Source: an archaeon (GTDB taxonomy: Archaea; Asgardarchaeota; Heimdallarchaeia; Heimdallarchaeales; Kariarchaeaceae). From it: a stretch of DNA of 9,144 nt. The notes under the pieces were generated by a model, which was given only the letters and a program-made list of their open reading frames with translations, was not told where the DNA came from and did not search any database. How positions within the stretch are numbered: position 1 is the stretch's first letter; every line of letters begins with the position of its first letter. A program made the position numbers and the translations under genes. Location of the stretch: positions 1 to 9,144 of the forward strand of contig JAJRQD010000040.1 in NCBI GenBank assembly GCA_024280435.1, given 5' to 3'. Below are positions 1,786-7,062 of the stretch, in pieces.

Positions 1786-2286
1786 ACACACTTTTATGAA
1801 GTTATACACCTACTAGTAGCTAGAATAAAAAATATTATGAATAAACTTGTGTCCAAATAAAATATAACTTGGATTTATTGTCAAAAATAATTTACTTGGA
1901 TTTGTATTAGATGGAAAAATGTAGCTGAGAAAAGTATTAAATTAATAGATGCATATCAAACGCGGAAAAAGAATGGATTAGGAGATATGTCAGTTATCTC
2001 ATATCCACTATTATTGCATCTAAATACGTACAAATCCAGATTTACAAAAATAATGGTATTTTTATACTGATCTGATATTTATACGTGAATGAATACTAAT
2101 TTTATCGATATTCCATGTGCTAGATCAACAACCATCTTAAAAAAAAAATATATAACCAATAATAACCACAGTAAAACAAGAACTCAAAATAAATTGAGAA
2201 ACAAGATGTATGATATCATCAAGTTAAAAATAACTGATACAATAGAAATATCAGTAATAATTGTAATTATAAAATATTACAAGAAT

Positions 2287-2359
2287 GGGCTGTTAGCTCA
2301 GCTGGTAGAGCGTTTGGTTCGCAATCAAAAGGCCGCGGGTTCAAATCCCGCACAGTCCA
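2287..2359 (+). tRNA. tRNA-Ala (anticodon CGC), 73 nt, no encoded CCA, no intron
   Basis: Hand-folded cloverleaf: acceptor GGGCTGT/ACAGTCC with the G3:U70 alanine identity pair. D arm GCTC-AGCTGGTA-GAGC. Anticodon arm TTTGG-TTCGCAA-TCAAA (positions 34-36 = CGC). Variable loop AGGCC. T arm GCGGG-TTCAAAT-CCCGC. Discriminator A. Confidence 0.93.
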
Positions 2360-2590
2360 TAAAATTAAATTACAATCATGAGAGCCATACATCACAGACA
2401 TATTTCAACTGTGAAATTATAAGACGAACAGAGGACAGGTACAATAGCTGTCGATAGAAATGCAATAAAAGTAACACCAGAGAACCAAAATACATTCAAT
2501 AGTGACATCACCTGTACTTGTGAAAATAACCTCTCAACTTAAAATTTGTACGTGCAAATAAGATGATGCAATATATAAACCAAAAATAAA

Positions 2591-3088
2591 CTACCCCTCA
2601 ATACCACCAAACTCATCCACTCTCAACTGAGTAGAAGATACAAGCCGCCCAGATTTATCCCTCAACCAAGGTATCACAATAACATCCAACGGAACCAAAC
2701 CATTCCCCTCACGAATAGAATTTATACTCACACCACTAGACTGTGTCTCCCTGGAAACCACAAGAGCGCCATTATCAGTCTCATCATAAGGTGCAGGACC
2801 CCAGTAATCAAACAACTCACCCACCGCAAACTCTATACCAAATGTAGACAGAAAATCAACCACACTAACAGACCTAAGATCATACGATTGTATCTTATCA
2901 CCATGTACCTTGTTACTAAACAACTCTAAACCCAACTCATCAGATACAACCCCAACAAACACATTATCAGAAATCATCACCGCAGTACGTATCAAAGACT
3001 CATGCGCATGATGAAATCTATCAAATGTACCACCCAAAAATGCCATATCATAGGGTTTCTTATCAGTATAAATATTCTCGAAATCCAT
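2591..3088 (-). CDS. coaD: archaeal-type phosphopantetheine adenylyltransferase (cytidylyltransferase-like fold), about 165 aa
   Basis: ORF track protein carries the GGTFDRFHHAH nucleotidyltransferase (H/T)xGH motif. It also has the C-terminal ...VVSRET...PL..IVIP......G..VSST.LR pattern seen in archaeal PPATs (from memory). The track start at 3106 is a TTG. I prefer the ATG at 3088 (MDFENIY...) because TTTAAATT on the minus strand (3119-3126) sits too close to 3106 to serve it. Confidence 0.75.
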   Translation of the reverse strand: MDFENIYTDKKPYDMAFLGGTFDRFHHAHESLIRTAVMISDNVFVGVVSDELGLELFSNKVHGDKIQSYDLRSVSVVDFLSTFGIEFAVGELFDYWGPAPYDETDNGALVVSRETQSSGVSINSIREGNGLVPLDVIVIPWLRDKSGRLVSSTQLRVDEFGGIEG

Positions 3089-3156
3089 AGTTTTATTACT
3101 TAGCAACCATTTTAATACAATTTAAACATTTACTTAACGCGTTAGCGAACTTTAAG

Positions 3157-3164
3157 TTTAAATA
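3157..3164 (+). promoter_or_regulatory. candidate TATA box (TTTAAATA) for the 5S rRNA transcription unit
   Basis: TTTAAATA at 3157-3164. The expected TSS about 23-25 nt downstream falls near G3187, which is exactly where the G+C-richer structured sequence begins. It is divergent from the PPAT TATA candidate at 3119-3126. Confidence 0.4.
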
Positions 3165-3239
3165 TAACAGCAATAGATATTGATTTGTCGAAAAACACTC
3201 ACGAGTGAACCGACAACCAATCCACTCCGGTGGAAGTAA

Positions 3240-3436
3240 ATGCTTACCCACTATTTTAAAGGTCGCTTTCAACAAGAAAGTTAAGCCTCTCATCGTATGC
3301 TTCTGTACTAATTTGCGCGAGCAATTGGGAACATCATAACGCTGGCACTCGATGCCGGCCATAGAGAGAGGGTTCACCAAGTAACATCCGAACCTTGATA
3401 TTGATTGTGATGCTGATTAGAATAGTGGGTAGGCAT
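3240..3436 (+). rRNA. 5S rRNA gene in circularly permuted order, with flanking inverted repeat. The 3' part of 5S (helix II 3' strand through helix I 3' strand) is 3277-3347, the CUCGA cap is 3348-3352, and the 5' part (helix I 5' strand through loop C and helix III) is 3353-3398
   Basis: Segment 3277-3347 reads AAAGUUAAGCCUCUCAUCGUAUGCUUCUGUACUAAUUUGCGCGAGCAAUUGGGAACAUCAUAACGCUGGCA. It matches the remembered archaeal 5S 3' portion (GAAGUUAAGCC ... GAGUACUGGAGUGCGCGAGCCUCUGGGAAAC ...). Segment 3353-3398 reads UGCCGGCCAUAGAGAGAGGGUUCACCAAGUAACAUCCGAACCUUGA. It matches the 5S 5' portion (GGCGGCCACAGCGG....CCAUCCCGAAC). Every 5S helix can be formed across the two pieces: helix I GCUGGCA(3341-3347)/UGCCGGC(3353-3359); helix II GAGAGG(3366-3371)/CCUCUC(3286-3291); helix III CAAG(3378-3381)/CUUG(3394-3397) around the 12-nt loop UAACAUCCGAAC; helix IV CUAAUU(3308-3313)/AAUUGG(3323-3328) around UGCGCGAGC; helix V UAUG(3296-3299)/CAUA(3335-3338). 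The two pieces total 46+71 = 117 nt. The unit is flanked by the 20-bp inverted repeat 3240-3259/3417-3436 and followed by T7. Confidence 0.75.
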
Positions 3437-3442
3437 TTTTTT
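3436..3442 (+). terminator. oligo-T (T7) archaeal-type terminator directly after the 3' arm of the 5S flanking stem
   Basis: TTTTTTT at 3436-3442 on the plus strand, immediately following the inverted-repeat arm. Confidence 0.5.
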
Positions 3443-3599
3443 ATCGAAAAATTTTGTATTTTTGGTTATTGATGTTATGTGTTGGTTATTTATAAGCAAG
3501 CATGATATTTCACCTGATCTCTGCAATAGTCACATTTATTGCAATCTATTGGTTCATACTGAGAGGTGGGTACATCGCAAATTATTTTTTATTGTTATT

Positions 3600-3795
3600 A
3601 TTTTTTCAAAGTCTTATTTCATGGATGTACTTTTTTTTCTAAAAAAATAATTTGCGCGAGTAATTGGGAACATTATGAGATGGGTGCTTGATGACGGACA
3701 TATATGGTTTTTACCAGATGTATCCGAATTTTTAAAAAAATGATTTTATTGTGTTGGTAAGTATGTATTCAGATACAATAATAGTGGATATGGGG
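3600..3795 (+). pseudogene. decayed paralogue of the permuted 5S unit, in the same permuted order and probably non-functional
   Basis: 3648-3673 TAATTTGCGCGAGTAATTGGGAACAT matches 3309-3334 at 25/26 positions. GATGACGGACATA matches GATGCCGGCCATA at 11/13. ATCCGAA (3722-3728) is conserved. AATAGTGGATATGG (3779-3792) resembles AATAGTGGGTAGGC (3421-3434). However, the helix I and helix II strands no longer pair, and a T8-CT-A7 block (3631-3647) is inserted inside it. Boundaries are approximate. Confidence 0.5.
3729..3740. terminator. T5/A7 block, a possible bidirectional oligo-T terminator
   Basis: TTTTTAAAAAAA at 3729-3740 gives T5 on the plus strand and T7 on the minus strand. It is the first minus-strand T-run downstream of nop10, so the aIF2-alpha/nop10 transcript may read through the tandem array to this point. 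Confidence 0.3.
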
Positions 3796-3796
3796 C

Positions 3797-4020
3797 TACT
3801 GTTCTGTGTGGTCATATTATTGGAGTTTATCATTTTCTGAATACTGTTTTTTGTATGGTCAGATTATTGGAGCTTATTACTTTCTGTATGGTCTTATTAT
3901 TGGAGTTCATCACTTTCTGAATACTGTTTTTTGTATGGTCAGATTATTGGAGTTCATCACTTTCTGAATACTGTTTTCTGTATGGTCAGATTATAGGTGT
4001 TCATTATTTTCTGTACAGTC
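3797..4020 (-). repeat. tandem repeat array of five full units (33, 47, 47, 33, 47 nt) plus a partial unit; the first unit contains the last five codons and the stop codon of nop10
   Basis: Units read on the minus strand: 4020-3988 GACTGTACAGAAAATAATGAACACCTATAATCT; 3987-3941 GACCATACAGAAAACAGTATTCAGAAAGTGATGAACTCCAATAATCT; 3940-3894 GACCATACAAAAAACAGTATTCAGAAAGTGATGAACTCCAATAATAA; 3893-3861 GACCATACAGAAAGTAATAAGCTCCAATAATCT; 3860-3814 GACCATACAAAAAACAGTATTCAGAAAATGATAAACTCCAATAATAT; 3813-3797 partial. The long units equal the short unit plus a 14-nt insertion. Confidence 0.9.
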
Positions 4021-4156: not shown

Positions 4157-4966
4157 CTAGTTTTTATTTTTCTGTTGAACTATTTTGTATTCAACATTGA
4201 GATCTTTGCTTGCCTCTGTAAGATTTTTCTCAATTGCAATATATGCCTCATTTATTTCAGGATAAGATCTTCCTTCAAGATGAATTCGATATTGTGGACT
4301 ACCAATTGTGGTGATCTCACTCTCAATCTCTGGAAATTGTTTCACAGTATCCTCTGCTACTTTTAATAGACTTTTTACCTGTTCCACACCATCAGGAGAG
4401 AATGAACGTATACCAACATCAGCAGAGATCACAACAGTGGATACCTGAATACTCATCACAGCAGATTCATGTATTATTTTTGCAAGTTCGGGATCTATAT
4501 CCATGAAATCAAGTACTTCAATACCTGTAAATGCTAATTCTTCAAATCCCACATATAAAGAGCCGAATTCCCTGAGAAATGGTTTCTCAAGTAGTTCTCT
4601 CAGCTCTTCTGCAGTCTGTGGTACTTTTTTAGCAATTATACCAATCAACGCAAGTGCGGAGTTCTGTTTTTTATATTCTGCAATTTTATCTTTCTTCAGC
4701 GATTCAGATACTCTTTTGATACTGAGATCTATCTGATTGGTCACTCTGTTTACCCTTAACACACGTCCAACTATTGATTGATCCTGTCTTACAAAATTCC
4801 TTATATTTCTTACCCATGCACCGGTGATCTCTGATACATGTACGTATCCCTCTACACCCTCATATTCTTTTAATTTCACATATACACCGTGTTTGGTAAT
4901 TTTACTTACCACACCAATTACAAAGTCATGCTTTTGTGGTAACTTAATTTTTGTTTTCTCTGACAT
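4157..4966 (-). CDS. eif2a: translation initiation factor 2 subunit alpha (aIF2-alpha), 269 aa
   Basis: ORF track. The N-terminal S1/OB domain (P..G..V.G.V..I...G.YV.L.EY.G.EG.VH.SE......RNIR) is followed by helical and alpha/beta domains. The length is typical for the family. ATG start with a GGTGA SD. nop10 lies directly downstream. Confidence 0.9.
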   Translation of the reverse strand: MSEKTKIKLPQKHDFVIGVVSKITKHGVYVKLKEYEGVEGYVHVSEITGAWVRNIRNFVRQDQSIVGRVLRVNRVTNQIDLSIKRVSESLKKDKIAEYKKQNSALALIGIIAKKVPQTAEELRELLEKPFLREFGSLYVGFEELAFTGIEVLDFMDIDPELAKIIHESAVMSIQVSTVVISADVGIRSFSPDGVEQVKSLLKVAEDTVKQFPEIESEITTIGSPQYRIHLEGRSYPEINEAYIAIEKNLTEASKDLNVEYKIVQQKNKN

Positions 4967-5631: not shown

Positions 5632-7062
5632 CTATTTGAATATAATATACTCGTCGTTTTCCTGTAATCTATCAGATGCGAACCTGTATACCTCTCCAAG
5701 CTTCTCATTCATAGCATCAGAGATCATATTCTGATCAACCATATTCAATTCATTGTGATCTGTCAACAGATTGATCAGCTCGCCATTGGCATAGTATAGA
5801 TCCATACCCATATCGAATGCTCTTACTCTGCCTCTGTATATCATATCGAGTGGTGTGATAATCTTCACTCTCTGTCCAATCAACTCATTAGATATACCAG
5901 AATAGTATTTGTAATGTATGGTCCATGAACCGGGTACAAATATTACCTCCATTATATCCTGTACTGCAAGATCAAGATTAGATACCGCATCAACATCTGA
6001 TTGCGACATTGATTTTCTGGTGATGAAATATTCTTTGTTCTCAATTATATCACCAAGATTGTACTCTTCATTAATTCCATCTGCAAAATGGAACTCTGCT
6101 TTGATATGATTATTTATGGGATAATCCCGTTCCATTATCATCGCATTCAGTGTATTACTCATCTCATCAACAGTGATCTTATCAAGGAATTTCTTGGCAA
6201 AATCAAGTGTGAACCCAGTAGAATATGAATATGCTTTGAAATGATGATAATTTGGAATTGTTGTCTCTATATCAGCTCTTATCTCATCAAAGTATTTTTT
6301 ACTATCATATCCGAATATTATCTCTGATTGTACCTCTCCGGAGACCAGTCTTTTTGGCTCTCTCTCATCATCCAGTTCCTCATCTATATCTTTCCACAGA
6401 TTGGCCAACTGCTCTATCTCAAAGTTAAGAGATTCTTTATCTATATTGGTGGCACTTGTTCTGATTATTATTCCAAAGCCATCGGGTAGTAATTCTTTTC
6501 CAATATCATGTAATCTCTTTCTCTCTGCTCCTTTGATCTTTCTAGAGACTCTGACAAAGGATGAACCGATCTCAAGTATCACATAGTTTCCACTTAATGT
6601 CAATAATTCAGAACATACAGGTAATTTACCTTTCTCTGCGGTGAGCTCCTTAACCTGTACCAGTATCAACTGCCCCTGTTGTCCCTCAAAATTGAACAGA
6701 ATTGCCTGTCTCTCATTTCCAATATCCAGTATAGCAAGTTTCTTACGATAAATATGCTTGCTAACTCTTGCAAGATATATTGAATCCTGTTGAATCTCCT
6801 GTTTAAACAGTACACAGTCGGGTAATTCCTCTTGTAATGTATTCTCAATCATTTTCACAGCACTGGATATACCTTTTATCTGTATTCCAATACGCTTATC
6901 CAGATCACCGATATGCACATCATGAGGTTGTATATTTGCATCTGTATTCTGATTTAAATTGTGTGAGGAGAGAATTGAGAAGTTCCCTGTATCCTTTAGT
7001 ATTTTACCAAGAGCCAGATCATATATTGAATCGATCCTAACTCTGGCTAGTATTTCTGTCAT
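5632..7062 (-). CDS. fau-1: RNA-binding protein / probable ribonuclease FAU-1 (archaeal RNase E/G-like domain plus a C-terminal DUF402-like region), 476 aa
   Basis: ORF track. The length matches archaeal FAU-1 (about 470 aa). The central GFGIIIRTSA motif and the preceding S1-like segment resemble the RNase E/G catalytic core. CTTTAAAC on the minus strand (TTTAAA at 7088-7093) is centred about 28 nt upstream of the ATG, consistent with a leaderless mRNA. Confidence 0.7.
   Translation of the reverse strand: MTEILARVRIDSIYDLALGKILKDTGNFSILSSHNLNQNTDANIQPHDVHIGDLDKRIGIQIKGISSAVKMIENTLQEELPDCVLFKQEIQQDSIYLARVSKHIYRKKLAILDIGNERQAILFNFEGQQGQLILVQVKELTAEKGKLPVCSELLTLSGNYVILEIGSSFVRVSRKIKGAERKRLHDIGKELLPDGFGIIIRTSATNIDKESLNFEIEQLANLWKDIDEELDDEREPKRLVSGEVQSEIIFGYDSKKYFDEIRADIETTIPNYHHFKAYSYSTGFTLDFAKKFLDKITVDEMSNTLNAMIMERDYPINNHIKAEFHFADGINEEYNLGDIIENKEYFITRKSMSQSDVDAVSNLDLAVQDIMEVIFVPGSWTIHYKYYSGISNELIGQRVKIITPLDMIYRGRVRAFDMGMDLYYANGELINLLTDHNELNMVDQNMISDAMNEKLGEVYRFASDRLQENDEYIIFK

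What the first reader, a model, noticed from the sequence alone, without database searches (positions are those of the whole stretch)
3240..3436. Circularly permuted 5S rRNA gene (3' two-thirds, then a 5-nt cap, then the 5' third)
Seen in sequence: 3277-3347 carries the hallmark 3' portion of archaeal 5S, namely AAGUUAAGCC and then UGUACUAAUUUGCGCGAGCAAUUGGGAAC. This corresponds to the remembered consensus GAGUACUGGAGUGCGCGAGCCUCUGGGAAAC. The helix IV pairs are changed from GGAG/CUCU to AAUU/AAUU, so pairing is kept through compensatory changes. The hallmark 5' portion (GCCGGCCAUAG, the helix II strand GAGAGG, and loop C CAUCCGAAC closed by CAAG/CUUG) lies downstream of it at 3353-3398. The native 3' and 5' ends (GCUGGCA and UGCCGGC) are joined by only CUCGA, so helix I becomes a capped hairpin. 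The helix II strands CCUCUC (3286-3291) and GAGAGG (3366-3371) are complementary only when the two pieces are read in swapped order. Swapped, the pieces give a 117-nt molecule with all five helices. The break maps to the 3' strand of loop B, between helix III and AAGUUAAGCC. Established knowledge, from memory: permuted genes rescued by cleavage and ligation are known for some tRNAs and for an archaeal SRP RNA, and permuted 5S rRNAs have been reported in organelles. I do not know of a described permuted chromosomal 5S rRNA in an archaeon. Inference: the functional 5S here is either circularised or is a linear molecule with new termini in loop B.
Basis: partly seen in the sequence, partly recalled or inferred. 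Interest (0 to 1): 0.88.

Follow-up and report, generated by a model that had tools for sequence, protein, structure and literature searches.

The report
Circularly permuted archaeal 5S rRNA gene
This Heimdall-group (Asgard) archaeon encodes its 5S ribosomal RNA with the two parts in swapped order, flanked by a tRNA-intron-type splicing signal that should cut it out and close it into a 121-nt circle; this could explain why standard tools report no 5S gene in such genomes.

Summary
Window 3279-3399 (+) holds a complete 5S rRNA in the order 3' two-thirds, 5-nt cap (CUCGA), 5' third. Rfam sees only a 16.9-bit sub-threshold match in native order. The two pieces tile RF00001 as complementary truncated matches. 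A covariance model built only from in-silico un-permuted sequences finds genuine canonical 5S rRNAs (E 3e-17 to 2e-10). Ten distinct permuted loci from independent assemblies share the breakpoint, nine of them full length. They form two clades affiliated with Heimdallarchaeota. In the nine full-length sequences, 97% of cells in the canonical 5S helices pair and 19 of 32 pairs show compensatory changes.

New here: leader and trailer form a canonical bulge-helix-bulge (BHB) motif exactly at the permutation junction. It is strict in all four full clade-A loci, and both its central and outer helices covary. Predicted cuts at 3278|3279 and 3399|3400 give a 121-nt RNA, most likely ligated into a circle, as for the permuted SRP RNA of Thermoproteus. 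I found no description of a permuted archaeal 5S gene. A 2022 paper on closed Heimdallarchaeum genomes reports that no 5S gene could be predicted. Ligation and ribosome incorporation are inferred, not shown.

The parts
3157..3166 (+). TATA-like box (TTTAAATATA) of the presumed archaeal promoter
   Evidence: It is read directly from the sequence. An A/T-rich box followed by ACAG is conserved at the same place in clade-A homologues L044 and L043. The transcription start, at about 3190, is inferred.
3233..3259 (+). Leader strand of the long outer leader-trailer helix
   Evidence: It pairs with 3417-3442 in the minimum-free-energy fold. The z-score of the precursor fold is -5.7. Compensatory changes occur in homologues, ACCCAC/GUGGGU against AUCCAC/GUGGAU.
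3263..3266 (+). Leader strand (UCGC) of an inner leader-trailer segment
   Evidence: It pairs with GUGA at 3407-3410. The equivalents are UCUG/CAGA in L044 and CCAG/CUGG in L043, read from alignment A1.
3269..3272 (+). BHB outer helix h, leader strand (UCAA)
   Evidence: It pairs with UUGA at 3401-3404. All 4 pairs show changes on both sides across the 4 clade-A sequences.
3273..3276 (+). BHB central 4-bp helix H, leader strand (CAAG)
   Evidence: It pairs with CUUG at 3394-3397, which is the helix III 3' strand. It covaries: CGAG/CUCG in L044 and L083, and CAGG/CCUG in L043.
3277..3279 (+). BHB 5' bulge (AAA), with the predicted cut between 3278 and 3279
   Evidence: The strict hBHBh' scan finds it. 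The scan's polarity and cut position were calibrated on intron-containing tRNAs of relatives.
3279..3347 (+). 5S rRNA 3' two-thirds
   Evidence: It comprises the loop B 3' strand, helix II 3' strand, helix V, loop E, helix IV, loop D and helix I 3' strand. RF00001 gives a 5'-truncated match to model positions 48-114 at 20.6 bits. Covariation is shown.
3348..3352 (+). 5-nt cap (CUCGA) closing helix I
   Evidence: It is read directly from the sequence. The homologous caps are CAUGA, CAUGA and UUCGA in clade A, and the UNCG tetraloops UUCG, UACG and UGCG in clade B.
3353..3399 (+). 5S rRNA 5' third, up to the predicted 3' cut
   Evidence: It comprises the helix I 5' strand, loop A, helix II 5' strand, helix III and loop C. 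RF00001 gives a 3'-truncated match to model positions 6-51 at 9.7 bits. Helices I and II pair across the two pieces, with 100% and 98% of cells paired and 4 compensatory pairs each.
3398..3400 (+). BHB 3' bulge (AUA), with the predicted cut between 3399 and 3400
   Evidence: Found by the strict scan. The homologues have AUA or CUA at this place.
3401..3442 (+). Trailer strand of the leader-trailer helix
   Evidence: It consists of UUGA, then UU, GUGA and UGCUGA, then the 26-nt outer strand.
3436..3442 (+). Run of 7 T, the presumed archaeal terminator
   Evidence: It is read directly from the sequence. TTTTTTTATC is conserved in L044 and L043, and L083 has a T9 run.
3648..3728 (+). Decayed fragment of a second permuted copy (pseudogene)
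   Evidence: It is 72% identical to 3309-3392 and in the same order. Complementarity of helices I, II and III is lost. Model R1 does not find it at E <= 1.

Best explanation
Window 3157-3442 (+) is a stand-alone, functional, circularly permuted 5S rRNA gene of a Heimdallarchaeota-affiliated Asgard archaeon.

The transcript is proposed to start after a TATA-like box and to end at a T7 run. It carries the 5S 3' two-thirds, a 5-nt hairpin cap that closes helix I, and then the 5S 5' third.

Leader and trailer pair into a long helix. Its innermost part is a canonical bulge-helix-bulge motif:
- outer helix h, UCAA/UUGA;
- central helix H, CAAG/CUUG;
- two 3-nt bulges, AAA and AUA;
- inner helix h', GUU/AAC.

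The central helix borrows the helix III 3' strand. The inner helix borrows the conserved GUU of AAGUUAAGC and the AAC of loop C.

The tRNA splicing endonuclease is proposed to cut after the second nucleotide of each bulge, at 3278|3279 and 3399|3400. RtcB ligase would then join the ends, as it does for BHB-excised tRNA introns and pre-16S/23S rRNAs. The product would be a covalently closed 121-nt 5S rRNA whose loop B reads CUUG-AUA-GUUAAGCC. Once the leader is released, helix III can form.

What is shown: the permuted order, full-length 5S homology, conservation and covariation, and the conserved BHB.
What is inferred: the cleavage enzyme, ligation, persistence of the circle in ribosomes, and that this is the only 5S gene.
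For: 1. Homology. The two halves tile RF00001. Model R1, built only from un-permuted sequences, finds canonical bacterial and eukaryotic 5S rRNAs full length at E 3e-17 to 2e-10. Rfam confirms these as 5S at 101 bits or more.

2. Conservation. There are ten distinct loci with the same order and breakpoint, nine of them full length. They come from independent NCBI, ENA, JGI and Logan assemblies. Neighbouring proteins are named Candidatus Heimdallarchaeota.

3. Selection on structure. On the canonical 5S structure, 97.2% of cells pair and 19 of 32 pairs show compensatory changes. This includes 4 pairs each in helices I and II, which join the two pieces. Slid controls pair at 24-44% and show at most 4 such pairs.

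4. BHB. The strict hBHBh' motif sits at the homologous position in all four full clade-A loci. The predicted products are 121-123 nt. H and h pair in 31 of 32 cells, and 6 of 8 pairs are compensatory. The scan's polarity and cut sites reproduce the known introns of a tRNA-Pro and a tRNA-Leu from relatives. The BHB conformer lies only 1.5-3.9 kcal/mol above the minimum free energy.

4a. A splicing substrate is present. An intron-containing tRNA-Leu lies on the same contig as the permuted 5S of L043.

5. The caps are short stable loops, UNCG tetraloops in clade B. This fits a cap that stays in the mature RNA.

6. Precedent. The permuted SRP RNA of Thermoproteus is cut at a BHB by the splicing endonuclease and circularised (PMC4731332).

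7. Absence of a canonical gene. No canonical 5S was found in the window, in L001, in the fetched 20.8 kb of L043 that holds the 23S 3' end, or in the other fetched loci of these lineages. 5S genes could not be predicted in closed Heimdallarchaeum genomes (PMC8813620).
Against: - No RNA data exist. Transcription, cleavage, ligation and presence in ribosomes are all untested.
- The whole source genome could not be scanned, so a canonical 5S elsewhere is not excluded.
- Strict BHB-like arrangements occur by chance about 1.6 times per shuffled 295-nt precursor. The argument therefore rests on position, conservation and covariation in only four sequences.
- Clade B lacks the simple strict motif. 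There a ~31-nt insert with a hairpin follows the leader bulge. The central helix is perfect in only 2 of 5 sequences and has a G-A mismatch in 3 of 5.
- The predicted junction leaves 3 unpaired nucleotides (AUA) where canonical 5S has 2 (AA).
- EndA and RtcB genes were not looked for in this genome.
Confidence: 0.7

Rival explanations
1. The 5S gene is permuted and functional, but the mature RNA stays linear with a nick in loop B. Its ends would lie near 3279 and 3399. This would resemble the permuted mitochondrial 5S of brown algae, where the final product is also permuted.
For: - Organellar permuted 5S rRNAs are linear in their final form (PMC4267664).
- A nick in the 3' strand of an internal loop leaves all helices intact.
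- Clade B lacks a clean BHB.
- No ligation evidence exists.
Against: - A strict, covarying BHB sits at the junction in all four clade-A loci.
- From established knowledge, BHB cleavage leaves a 2',3'-cyclic phosphate and a 5'-OH. RtcB ligates these ends, and BHB-excised tRNA introns, pre-rRNAs and the permuted SRP RNA are circularised in archaea (PMC4731332, PMC12918454).
Confidence: 0.2
2. The circular RNA is only an intermediate. It is re-opened in the helix I cap to restore canonical 5' and 3' ends, as with permuted tRNA genes, whose intervening sequence is removed.
For: - Permuted tRNA genes of Cyanidioschyzon are expressed through a circular intermediate that is then re-opened (cited in PMC4267664).
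Against: - The cap is only 4-5 nt.
- In clade B it is a UNCG-family tetraloop (UUCG, UACG or UGCG) on a covarying helix I. This looks like a stable structural loop, not a processing spacer.
- No flanking signal for a known end-maturation nuclease is apparent.
Confidence: 0.06
3. The locus is not a working gene. It would be an assembly artefact of tandem 5S copies, a pseudogene, or a 5S-derived element.
For: - A decayed partial copy lies 250 nt downstream.
- Rfam does not call the locus.
Against: - The same order and breakpoint occur in ten distinct loci from independent assemblies, including contigs of 345 kb and 400 kb.
- Only 4-5 nt separate the native ends, and they form a hairpin loop.
- The flanks are a leader and a trailer, not further 5S sequence.
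- Covariation shows strong purifying selection on all helices.
- Synteny with the PPAT-like gene is stable in clade A and in L063.
Confidence: 0.02

Closest known systems
Circularly permuted SRP RNA gene of Thermoproteus tenax and T. uzoniensis (Plagens et al. 2015, PMC4731332)
   Same: - A structured non-coding RNA gene is encoded in permuted order.
- Leader and trailer form a BHB at the junction.
- The tRNA splicing endonuclease cuts there, and the ends are joined into a functional circular RNA.
- The canonical gene is undetectable by standard models.
   Different: - The RNA here is 5S rRNA, a ribosomal component.
- The lineage is Heimdall-group Asgard, not Thermoproteales.
- Part of the BHB (H and h') is built from mature 5S nucleotides: the helix III 3' strand, GUU and AAC.
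- For the SRP RNA, cleavage and circles were shown experimentally. Here they are only predicted.
Circularly permuted tRNA genes (Cyanidioschyzon merolae; cited in PMC4267664)
   Same: The 3' part precedes the 5' part, a BHB forms at the junction, and maturation involves a circular RNA.
   Different: In tRNAs the linker between the native ends is removed afterwards to give a linear tRNA. Here the 4-5-nt cap looks like a permanent hairpin loop.
Permuted mitochondrial 5S rRNA of brown algae and other stramenopiles (Rfam mtPerm-5S; Valach et al. 2014, PMC4267664)
   Same: It is a 5S rRNA whose helix I is a closed hairpin and whose ends lie elsewhere in the molecule.
   Different: - The organellar ends lie at the three-way junction between the alpha and gamma domains. 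Here the break is in the 3' strand of loop B.
- The organellar RNA stays linear and has no BHB.
- Rfam gave no match to that family at E <= 10.
Post-transcriptionally permuted or circular 23S rRNA (Pyrococcus furiosus PMC7758197; Thermococcus barophilus bioRxiv 2026.03.23.713588; circular 23S in ribosomes PMC12918454)
   Same: BHB-dependent excision and circularisation of an rRNA. Circular or permuted rRNA is tolerated in archaeal ribosomes.
   Different: Those genes are collinear and the permutation arises only at RNA level. Here the gene itself is permuted, and circularisation would restore the canonical connectivity. PMC12918454 states that this pathway concerns 16S and 23S 'but not 5S'.
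Low-abundance circular forms of canonical 5S rRNA (Sulfolobus, Pyrococcus abyssi, Halobacterium; PMC12558985, bioRxiv 2026.03.23.713588)
   Same: Circular 5S-derived RNAs exist in archaea.
   Different: Those arise from collinear genes, without a BHB and with variable junctions. They are interpreted as intermediates or degradation products, not as the obligatory functional form.

Membership tests
5S rRNA (Rfam RF00001) | Three-way junction with helix I, helices II-III and helices IV-V | tested here: met
   After in-silico un-permutation, RNAalifold recovers the fold. On 9 sequences 97.2% of cells pair and 19 of 32 pairs are compensatory.
5S rRNA (Rfam RF00001) | Conserved loop motifs: loop A CCAUAG, loop C CAUCCGAAC, AAGUUAAGC, and GUACUA...GGGAAC of loop E | tested here: met
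   The truncated RF00001 alignments cover model positions 6-51 and 48-114 with high posterior probabilities.
5S rRNA (Rfam RF00001) | Genomic sequence reaches the family's gathering score of 38 bits | tested here: not met
   The native order scores 16.9 bits, E 1.4. None of the permuted loci included in the gathering-threshold scan (window, L001, L043, L044, L054, L063) is called. This failure is the expected result of the permutation, not of a lack of homology.
5S rRNA (Rfam RF00001) | Reciprocal recognition of genuine 5S rRNAs | tested here: met
   Model R1, built only from the un-permuted sequences, hits L078, L057 and L076 full length at 69, 61 and 46 bits. Rfam scores these at 108, 106 and 101 bits.
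5S rRNA (Rfam RF00001) | Present in the large ribosomal subunit | not testable with these tools
   This needs RNA from ribosomes.
BHB-processed circularly permuted RNA genes (tRNA, SRP RNA) | Gene order is 3' part, short linker, 5' part | tested here: met
   The same order is found in ten distinct loci.
BHB-processed circularly permuted RNA genes (tRNA, SRP RNA) | Leader and trailer form helix, 4-bp helix and 3-nt bulges (hBHBh') at the junction | tested here: met
   The motif is strict in 4 of 4 full clade-A loci at the homologous position and covaries. The scan was calibrated on tRNA introns. In clade B only relaxed or interrupted versions occur.
BHB-processed circularly permuted RNA genes (tRNA, SRP RNA) | Splicing endonuclease (EndA) and RtcB ligase encoded by the organism | not tested
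Indirect evidence: an intron-containing tRNA-Leu with a BHB lies on the same contig as the permuted 5S of L043.
BHB-processed circularly permuted RNA genes (tRNA, SRP RNA) | Ligated junction observed in RNA | not testable with these tools
   No transcriptome data are reachable.
Organellar permuted 5S (mtPerm-5S) | Ends at the alpha/gamma junction, with helix I replaced by a 5' hairpin | tested here: not met
   The break here lies between the helix III 3' strand and AAGUUAAGC, in loop B. No mtPerm-5S match appears at E <= 10. The family is described in PMC4267664.

The most novel reading that the evidence does not exclude
In a large part of the Heimdall-group Asgard archaea, the archaeal lineage usually placed closest to eukaryotes, the only 5S rRNA gene is circularly permuted. 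The ribosome would then carry a covalently closed circular 5S rRNA made by the tRNA splicing machinery.

In one clade (clade B) maturation may need two successive BHB events. The first would circularise the RNA. The second would remove a ~31-nt intron-like insert through a BHB that forms only across the first ligation junction.

This reading would explain why no 5S gene could be predicted in closed Heimdallarchaeum genomes.
Probability: 0.5. Interest if true: 0.9.

Novelty: new variant of a known kind. Interest (0 to 1): 0.85.

Why it matters
- **A first for rRNA.** As far as I could find, this would be the first ribosomal RNA gene of a cellular, non-organelle genome that is permuted at DNA level. 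It would also be the first case in which 5S rRNA depends on the tRNA splicing endonuclease and ligase. Current reviews state that archaeal 16S and 23S, but not 5S, pass through BHB-dependent circularisation.
- **A practical puzzle.** The authors of closed Heimdallarchaeum genomes reported that no 5S gene could be predicted. MAG quality standards require a 5S gene, so these lineages are systematically penalised. A permuted covariance model would find the gene.
- **A new handle.** It offers a natural test of how a circular or nicked 5S is accommodated in the central protuberance. It also gives a marker for Heimdall-group lineages.

Tried and rejected
1. My first BHB scan found nothing conserved because I had the polarity wrong, placing the bulge 5' of the central helix. 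I re-derived the polarity from pre-tRNA geometry and calibrated it on two intron-containing tRNAs. The corrected scan gave the conserved motif.

I replaced this test with truncated half-matches and with a reciprocal model built from swapped sequences.

3. I looked for canonical 5S genes in 41 Asgard, Thermoproteota and other loci fetched through aIF2-alpha. None was present, so no comparison with canonical Asgard 5S was possible.

4. A viral-contig scan with the permuted pattern gave 0 hits.

5. The metagenome scan returned 33 stretches. Only 3 (L054, L074, L063; two distinct sequences) are permuted 5S. The rest are chance matches or canonical 5S genes followed by a chance CCGAAC.

6. A local hairpin in the window's minimum-free-energy fold, GCUUUC/GAAAGU at 3265-3281, is not conserved in homologues. 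I rejected it in favour of the BHB conformer.

7. For clade B I tried a clade-A-type BHB (CGGG against CUGA: only 2 of 4 positions pair) and two relaxed alternatives. Neither alternative can be preferred on covariation.

8. The FAU-1/RNase W-like neighbour was considered as a processing enzyme. The only evidence is conserved synteny, so I did not pursue it.

Full report
**Source and context**

The window is the reverse complement of part of NCBI contig JAJRTV010000449.1 (GCA_024278115.1). A second NCBI assembly has a 9144-bp contig that encodes the neighbouring PPAT-like protein at 99% identity. The 216-nt 5S precursor region is 100% identical between the window and L001.

The flanking genes are archaeal:
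- aIF2-alpha at 4157-4966 (-);
- a FAU-1/RNase E/G-like protein at 5632-7062 (-);
- a cytidylyltransferase (PPAT)-like protein at 2591-3106 (-);
- tRNA-Ala at 2286-2360 (+).

The closest named relatives of these proteins are labelled Candidatus Heimdallarchaeota or Kariarchaeaceae. GTDB representative genomes reach only 39% identity for aIF2-alpha, and those best hits are Asgard lineages.

**Check of the observation**

Rfam at gathering threshold finds only the tRNA. With relaxed thresholds the native sequence gives a 16.9-bit 5S match (E 1.4). In that match the 3' two-thirds align well and the 5' third is forced onto leader sequence.

Searched separately, the two pieces behave as the model's two halves:
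- 3356-3399 matches RF00001 positions 6-51, truncated at the 3' side (9.7 bits).
- 3276-3344 matches positions 48-114, truncated at the 5' side (20.6 bits).

These scores exclude the helix I and II pairs, which span the two pieces. The swapped 117-nt sequence folds into the 5S three-way junction.

**Reciprocal test in place of scoring the swapped sequence**

Instead I un-permuted five homologues in silico and built a covariance model from them alone (R1). I then searched 895 kb of fetched loci.

R1 found three genuine canonical 5S rRNAs full length:

| Locus | R1 bits | R1 E-value | Rfam RF00001 bits |
|---|---|---|---|
| L078 | 69.3 | 3e-17 | 108 |
| L057 | 60.7 | 1e-14 | 106 |
| L076 | 46.4 | 2e-10 | 101 |

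The un-permuted sequences are therefore full-length 5S homologues. None of the permuted loci tested reaches Rfam's threshold, so standard annotation misses them.

**Relatives**

Three routes gave ten distinct permuted loci, nine of them full length: neighbour-gene look-ups, one metagenome pattern scan, and model searches.

- **Clade A:** the window (= L001); L044:1921-2127 (-); L043:5596-5770 (+), on a 400-kb contig; L083 (= L084 = L085); and the truncated L082.
- **Clade B:** L054 (= L074), L063, L089, L086 and L087.

All have the same order and the same breakpoint. Native-order cores measure 121-123 nt in the six loci measured.

Proteins next to clade-B loci are up to 89% identical to proteins named Candidatus Heimdallarchaeota. 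The PPAT-like gene sits divergently next to the 5S gene in clade A and in L063.

The fetched 20.8 kb of L043's contig also holds the 3' end of a 23S rRNA about 13.6 kb away. No 5S follows it.

**Covariation**

I aligned the nine full sequences in un-permuted order. I then imposed the canonical 5S structure, taken from the Rfam alignment and the H. marismortui-type helix IV.

- 97.2% of cells form standard pairs.
- 19 of 32 pairs show changes on both sides.
- Sliding the partners by 1-3 columns gives 24-44% pairing and at most 4 such pairs.
- None of 500 shuffles reaches the observed values for four of the five measures.

Helices I and II exist only if the two pieces are read in swapped order. 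They are 100% and 98% paired, with four compensatory pairs each. Helix V shows a one-nucleotide register shift in the window, which MAFFT cannot represent. This accounts for most of the unpaired cells.

This rules out a pseudogene or a mis-assembled tandem array. Only 4-5 nt join the native ends, and the flanks are leader and trailer, not more 5S sequence.

The precursor folds much better than shuffled sequence (z = -5.7). A helix of about 26 bp joins 3233-3259 to 3417-3442 and ends at a T7 run.

The four leader nucleotides just before AAAGUUAAGCC copy the helix III 5' strand and covary with the helix III 3' strand:

| Locus | Leader strand | Helix III 3' strand |
|---|---|---|
| Window | CAAG | CUUG |
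| L044, L083 | CGAG | CUCG |
| L043 | CAGG | CCUG |

A 3-nt trailer bulge and a further covarying 4-bp helix follow. In these two helices 31 of 32 cells pair and 6 of 8 pairs are compensatory.

My first BHB scan used the wrong polarity and found nothing conserved. I re-derived the polarity from pre-tRNA geometry: on each strand, read 5' to 3', the order is helix, 4-nt central helix, 3-nt bulge, helix. I tested this on two intron-containing tRNAs of relatives. The scan excised exactly the 25-nt intron after position 37 of a tRNA-Pro (L048) and the 30-nt intron that ARAGORN predicts in a tRNA-Leu (L043).

With the correct polarity, all four full clade-A loci have a strict hBHBh' at the same homologous position. 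In the window it reads:

| Element | Leader | Trailer |
|---|---|---|
| Outer helix h | UCAA, 3269-3272 | UUGA, 3401-3404 |
| Central helix H | CAAG, 3273-3276 | CUUG, 3394-3397 |
| Bulge B | AAA, 3277-3279 | AUA, 3398-3400 |
| Inner helix h' | GUU, 3280-3282 | AAC, 3391-3393 |

Cuts after the second bulge nucleotide give 3279-3399, which is 121 nt. The homologues give 123, 122 and 122 nt.

Enforcing this conformer costs only 1.5-3.9 kcal/mol relative to the minimum free energy. For the window and L044, the rest of the 5S still folds canonically.

A strict BHB somewhere in a shuffled 295-nt precursor is not rare, about 1.6 per sequence. The weight of the argument therefore lies elsewhere: the position exactly at the permutation junction, the exact 4-bp and 3-nt geometry in four lineages, and the covariation.

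**Mechanism**

*Shown:* a conserved, selected, permuted 5S gene with its own promoter-like box and terminator, and a canonical BHB at the junction.

*From established knowledge:* archaeal EndA cuts BHB bulges and leaves a 2',3'-cyclic phosphate and a 5'-OH. RtcB joins such ends. BHB-excised tRNA introns, pre-16S/23S rRNAs and the permuted Thermoproteus SRP RNA are circularised (PMC4731332, PMC12918454).

*Inferred:* the 5S is excised and closed into a 121-nt circle with the junction CUUGAU|AGUUAAGCC. This restores the covalent continuity of loop B. The released helix III 3' strand then pairs with its mature partner. The caps are pentaloops in clade A and the UNCG tetraloops UUCG, UACG and UGCG in clade B. 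Such caps look like permanent stable loops, so I expect the circle to persist rather than be re-opened at helix I.

A linear nicked product, or re-opening at the cap, remain possible.

**Clade B is not fully explained**

The clade-B leader reads, in order: a 10-bp outer stem, (U/G)CAG, a 3-nt bulge, G, a 6-9-bp hairpin, two nucleotides, C(G/A)GG, A(A/U)A, and then GUUAAGC. The trailer reads CCGAAC, CUGA, AA(A/U), then the outer stem.

Without the ~31-nt insert this would be the clade-A motif exactly: UCAG/CUGA, AAA, GUU/AAC.

- The outer stem covaries in 6 of 10 pairs.
- The proximal helix is perfect in 2 of 5 sequences and has a G-A mismatch in 3 of 5.
- The distal helix C(G/A)GG/CCUG is paired in 5 of 5 sequences.

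A second BHB-like motif could form across the first ligation junction and remove the insert. That would yield the canonical CUGA-AA-GUUAAGC. This is speculation.

**Comparison with what is known, and novelty**

Full-text searches found no description of a permuted archaeal 5S gene.

- The only permuted 5S rRNAs described are mitochondrial. They have a different breakpoint and a linear product (PMC4267664).
- A 2026 paper states that the circularisation pathway concerns archaeal 16S and 23S 'but not 5S' (PMC12918454).
- Low-level circular forms of collinear 5S are known, but they are BHB-independent.
- The closest precedent is the permuted SRP RNA of Thermoproteus.
- Wu et al. [quoted passage not shown] A permuted gene would explain this. 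I could not scan those genomes.

I therefore rate this a new variant of a known kind: BHB-rescued permuted RNA genes, now extended to an rRNA.

**Limits**

- There are no RNA data.
- No whole-genome scan for a canonical 5S was possible.
- EndA and RtcB genes were not checked.
- The BHB covariation rests on four sequences.
- Two clade-B sequences used to build R1 lacked one A at the in-silico junction. This was corrected in later alignments and does not affect the result.

Noticed in passing
window 3648-3728: A decayed fragment of a second copy of the permuted 5S gene, 72% identical to 3309-3392 and in the same order. Complementarity of helices I-III is lost and the AAGUUAAGCC part is missing. 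The already-permuted gene was therefore duplicated and one copy decayed.
   Followed up: yes
window 3797-4013: A tandem repeat array between the 5S pseudogene and aIF2-alpha. The unit is 47 nt x 2.8 copies, also readable as 80 nt x 2.1, with 90-91% matches. Its function is unknown.
   Followed up: no
window 3198-3205 (CUCACGAG) within the leader at about 3185-3212: A leader motif, GAAUUGUYGGRAASCUCACGAG, lies upstream of the leader-trailer helix and is conserved in all clade-A loci (window, L044, L043, L083, L082). It does not belong to the BHB or the outer stem. Its role is unknown.
   Followed up: partly
window 5632-7062 (-); L043:8337-9767; L048:1-1239; L044:1-234: A FAU-1/RNase W-like gene (Pfam RNase_E_G) keeps conserved synteny near the locus. 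Archaeal FAU-1 has been linked to 5S maturation in vitro (cited in PMC11602121). Here the only evidence is neighbourhood.
   Followed up: partly
window 2591-3106 (-) with 3157-3442 (+); L044, L043, L083, L082, L063: The PPAT-like cytidylyltransferase gene is divergently adjacent to the permuted 5S gene in clade A and in one clade-B locus. A shared A/T-rich intergenic promoter region is conserved within clade A.
   Followed up: partly
L054:5851-6075 (-), L063:105-330 (-), L089:7437-7629 (+), L086:7985-8224 (+), L087:8513-8738 (+): A second clade of permuted 5S genes has UNCG tetraloop caps. A ~31-nt insert with a 6-9-bp hairpin sits right after the leader bulge of the BHB. Two mutually exclusive 4-bp helices can form with the helix III 3' strand. 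This may indicate two-step, intron-like processing.
   Followed up: partly
L043:19348-20801 (-) and L043:18116-18230 (-); L048:6416-6514 (-): The contig of a clade-A relative holds the 3' end of its 23S rRNA, and no 5S lies in the fetched sequence downstream of it. It also holds an intron-containing tRNA-Leu (30-nt intron, relaxed BHB). A more distant relative has a tRNA-Pro with a 25-nt intron in a strict BHB. These tRNAs show that BHB substrates are in use in these lineages.
   Followed up: yes
literature (PMC8813620, Methods); L088 = CP084167.1:2006588-2027895: The authors of closed Heimdallarchaeum genomes state that 5S rRNA genes could not be predicted by any approach. The 21-kb piece of a 3.33-Mb single-contig Heimdall-affiliated genome that I hold contains no 5S of either kind. 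The rest of that genome could not be scanned.
   Followed up: partly
window 2089-2457 (+), 3096-3380 (-), 3374-3526 (-): These mechanical ORFs overlap the tRNA-Ala gene or the 5S precursor and are almost certainly spurious. Of the three, only 2089-2457 (+) coincides with a called gene on the source contig (L001 7224-7475, - strand, 83 aa, no Pfam hit); nothing is called across the 5S precursor.
   Followed up: partly
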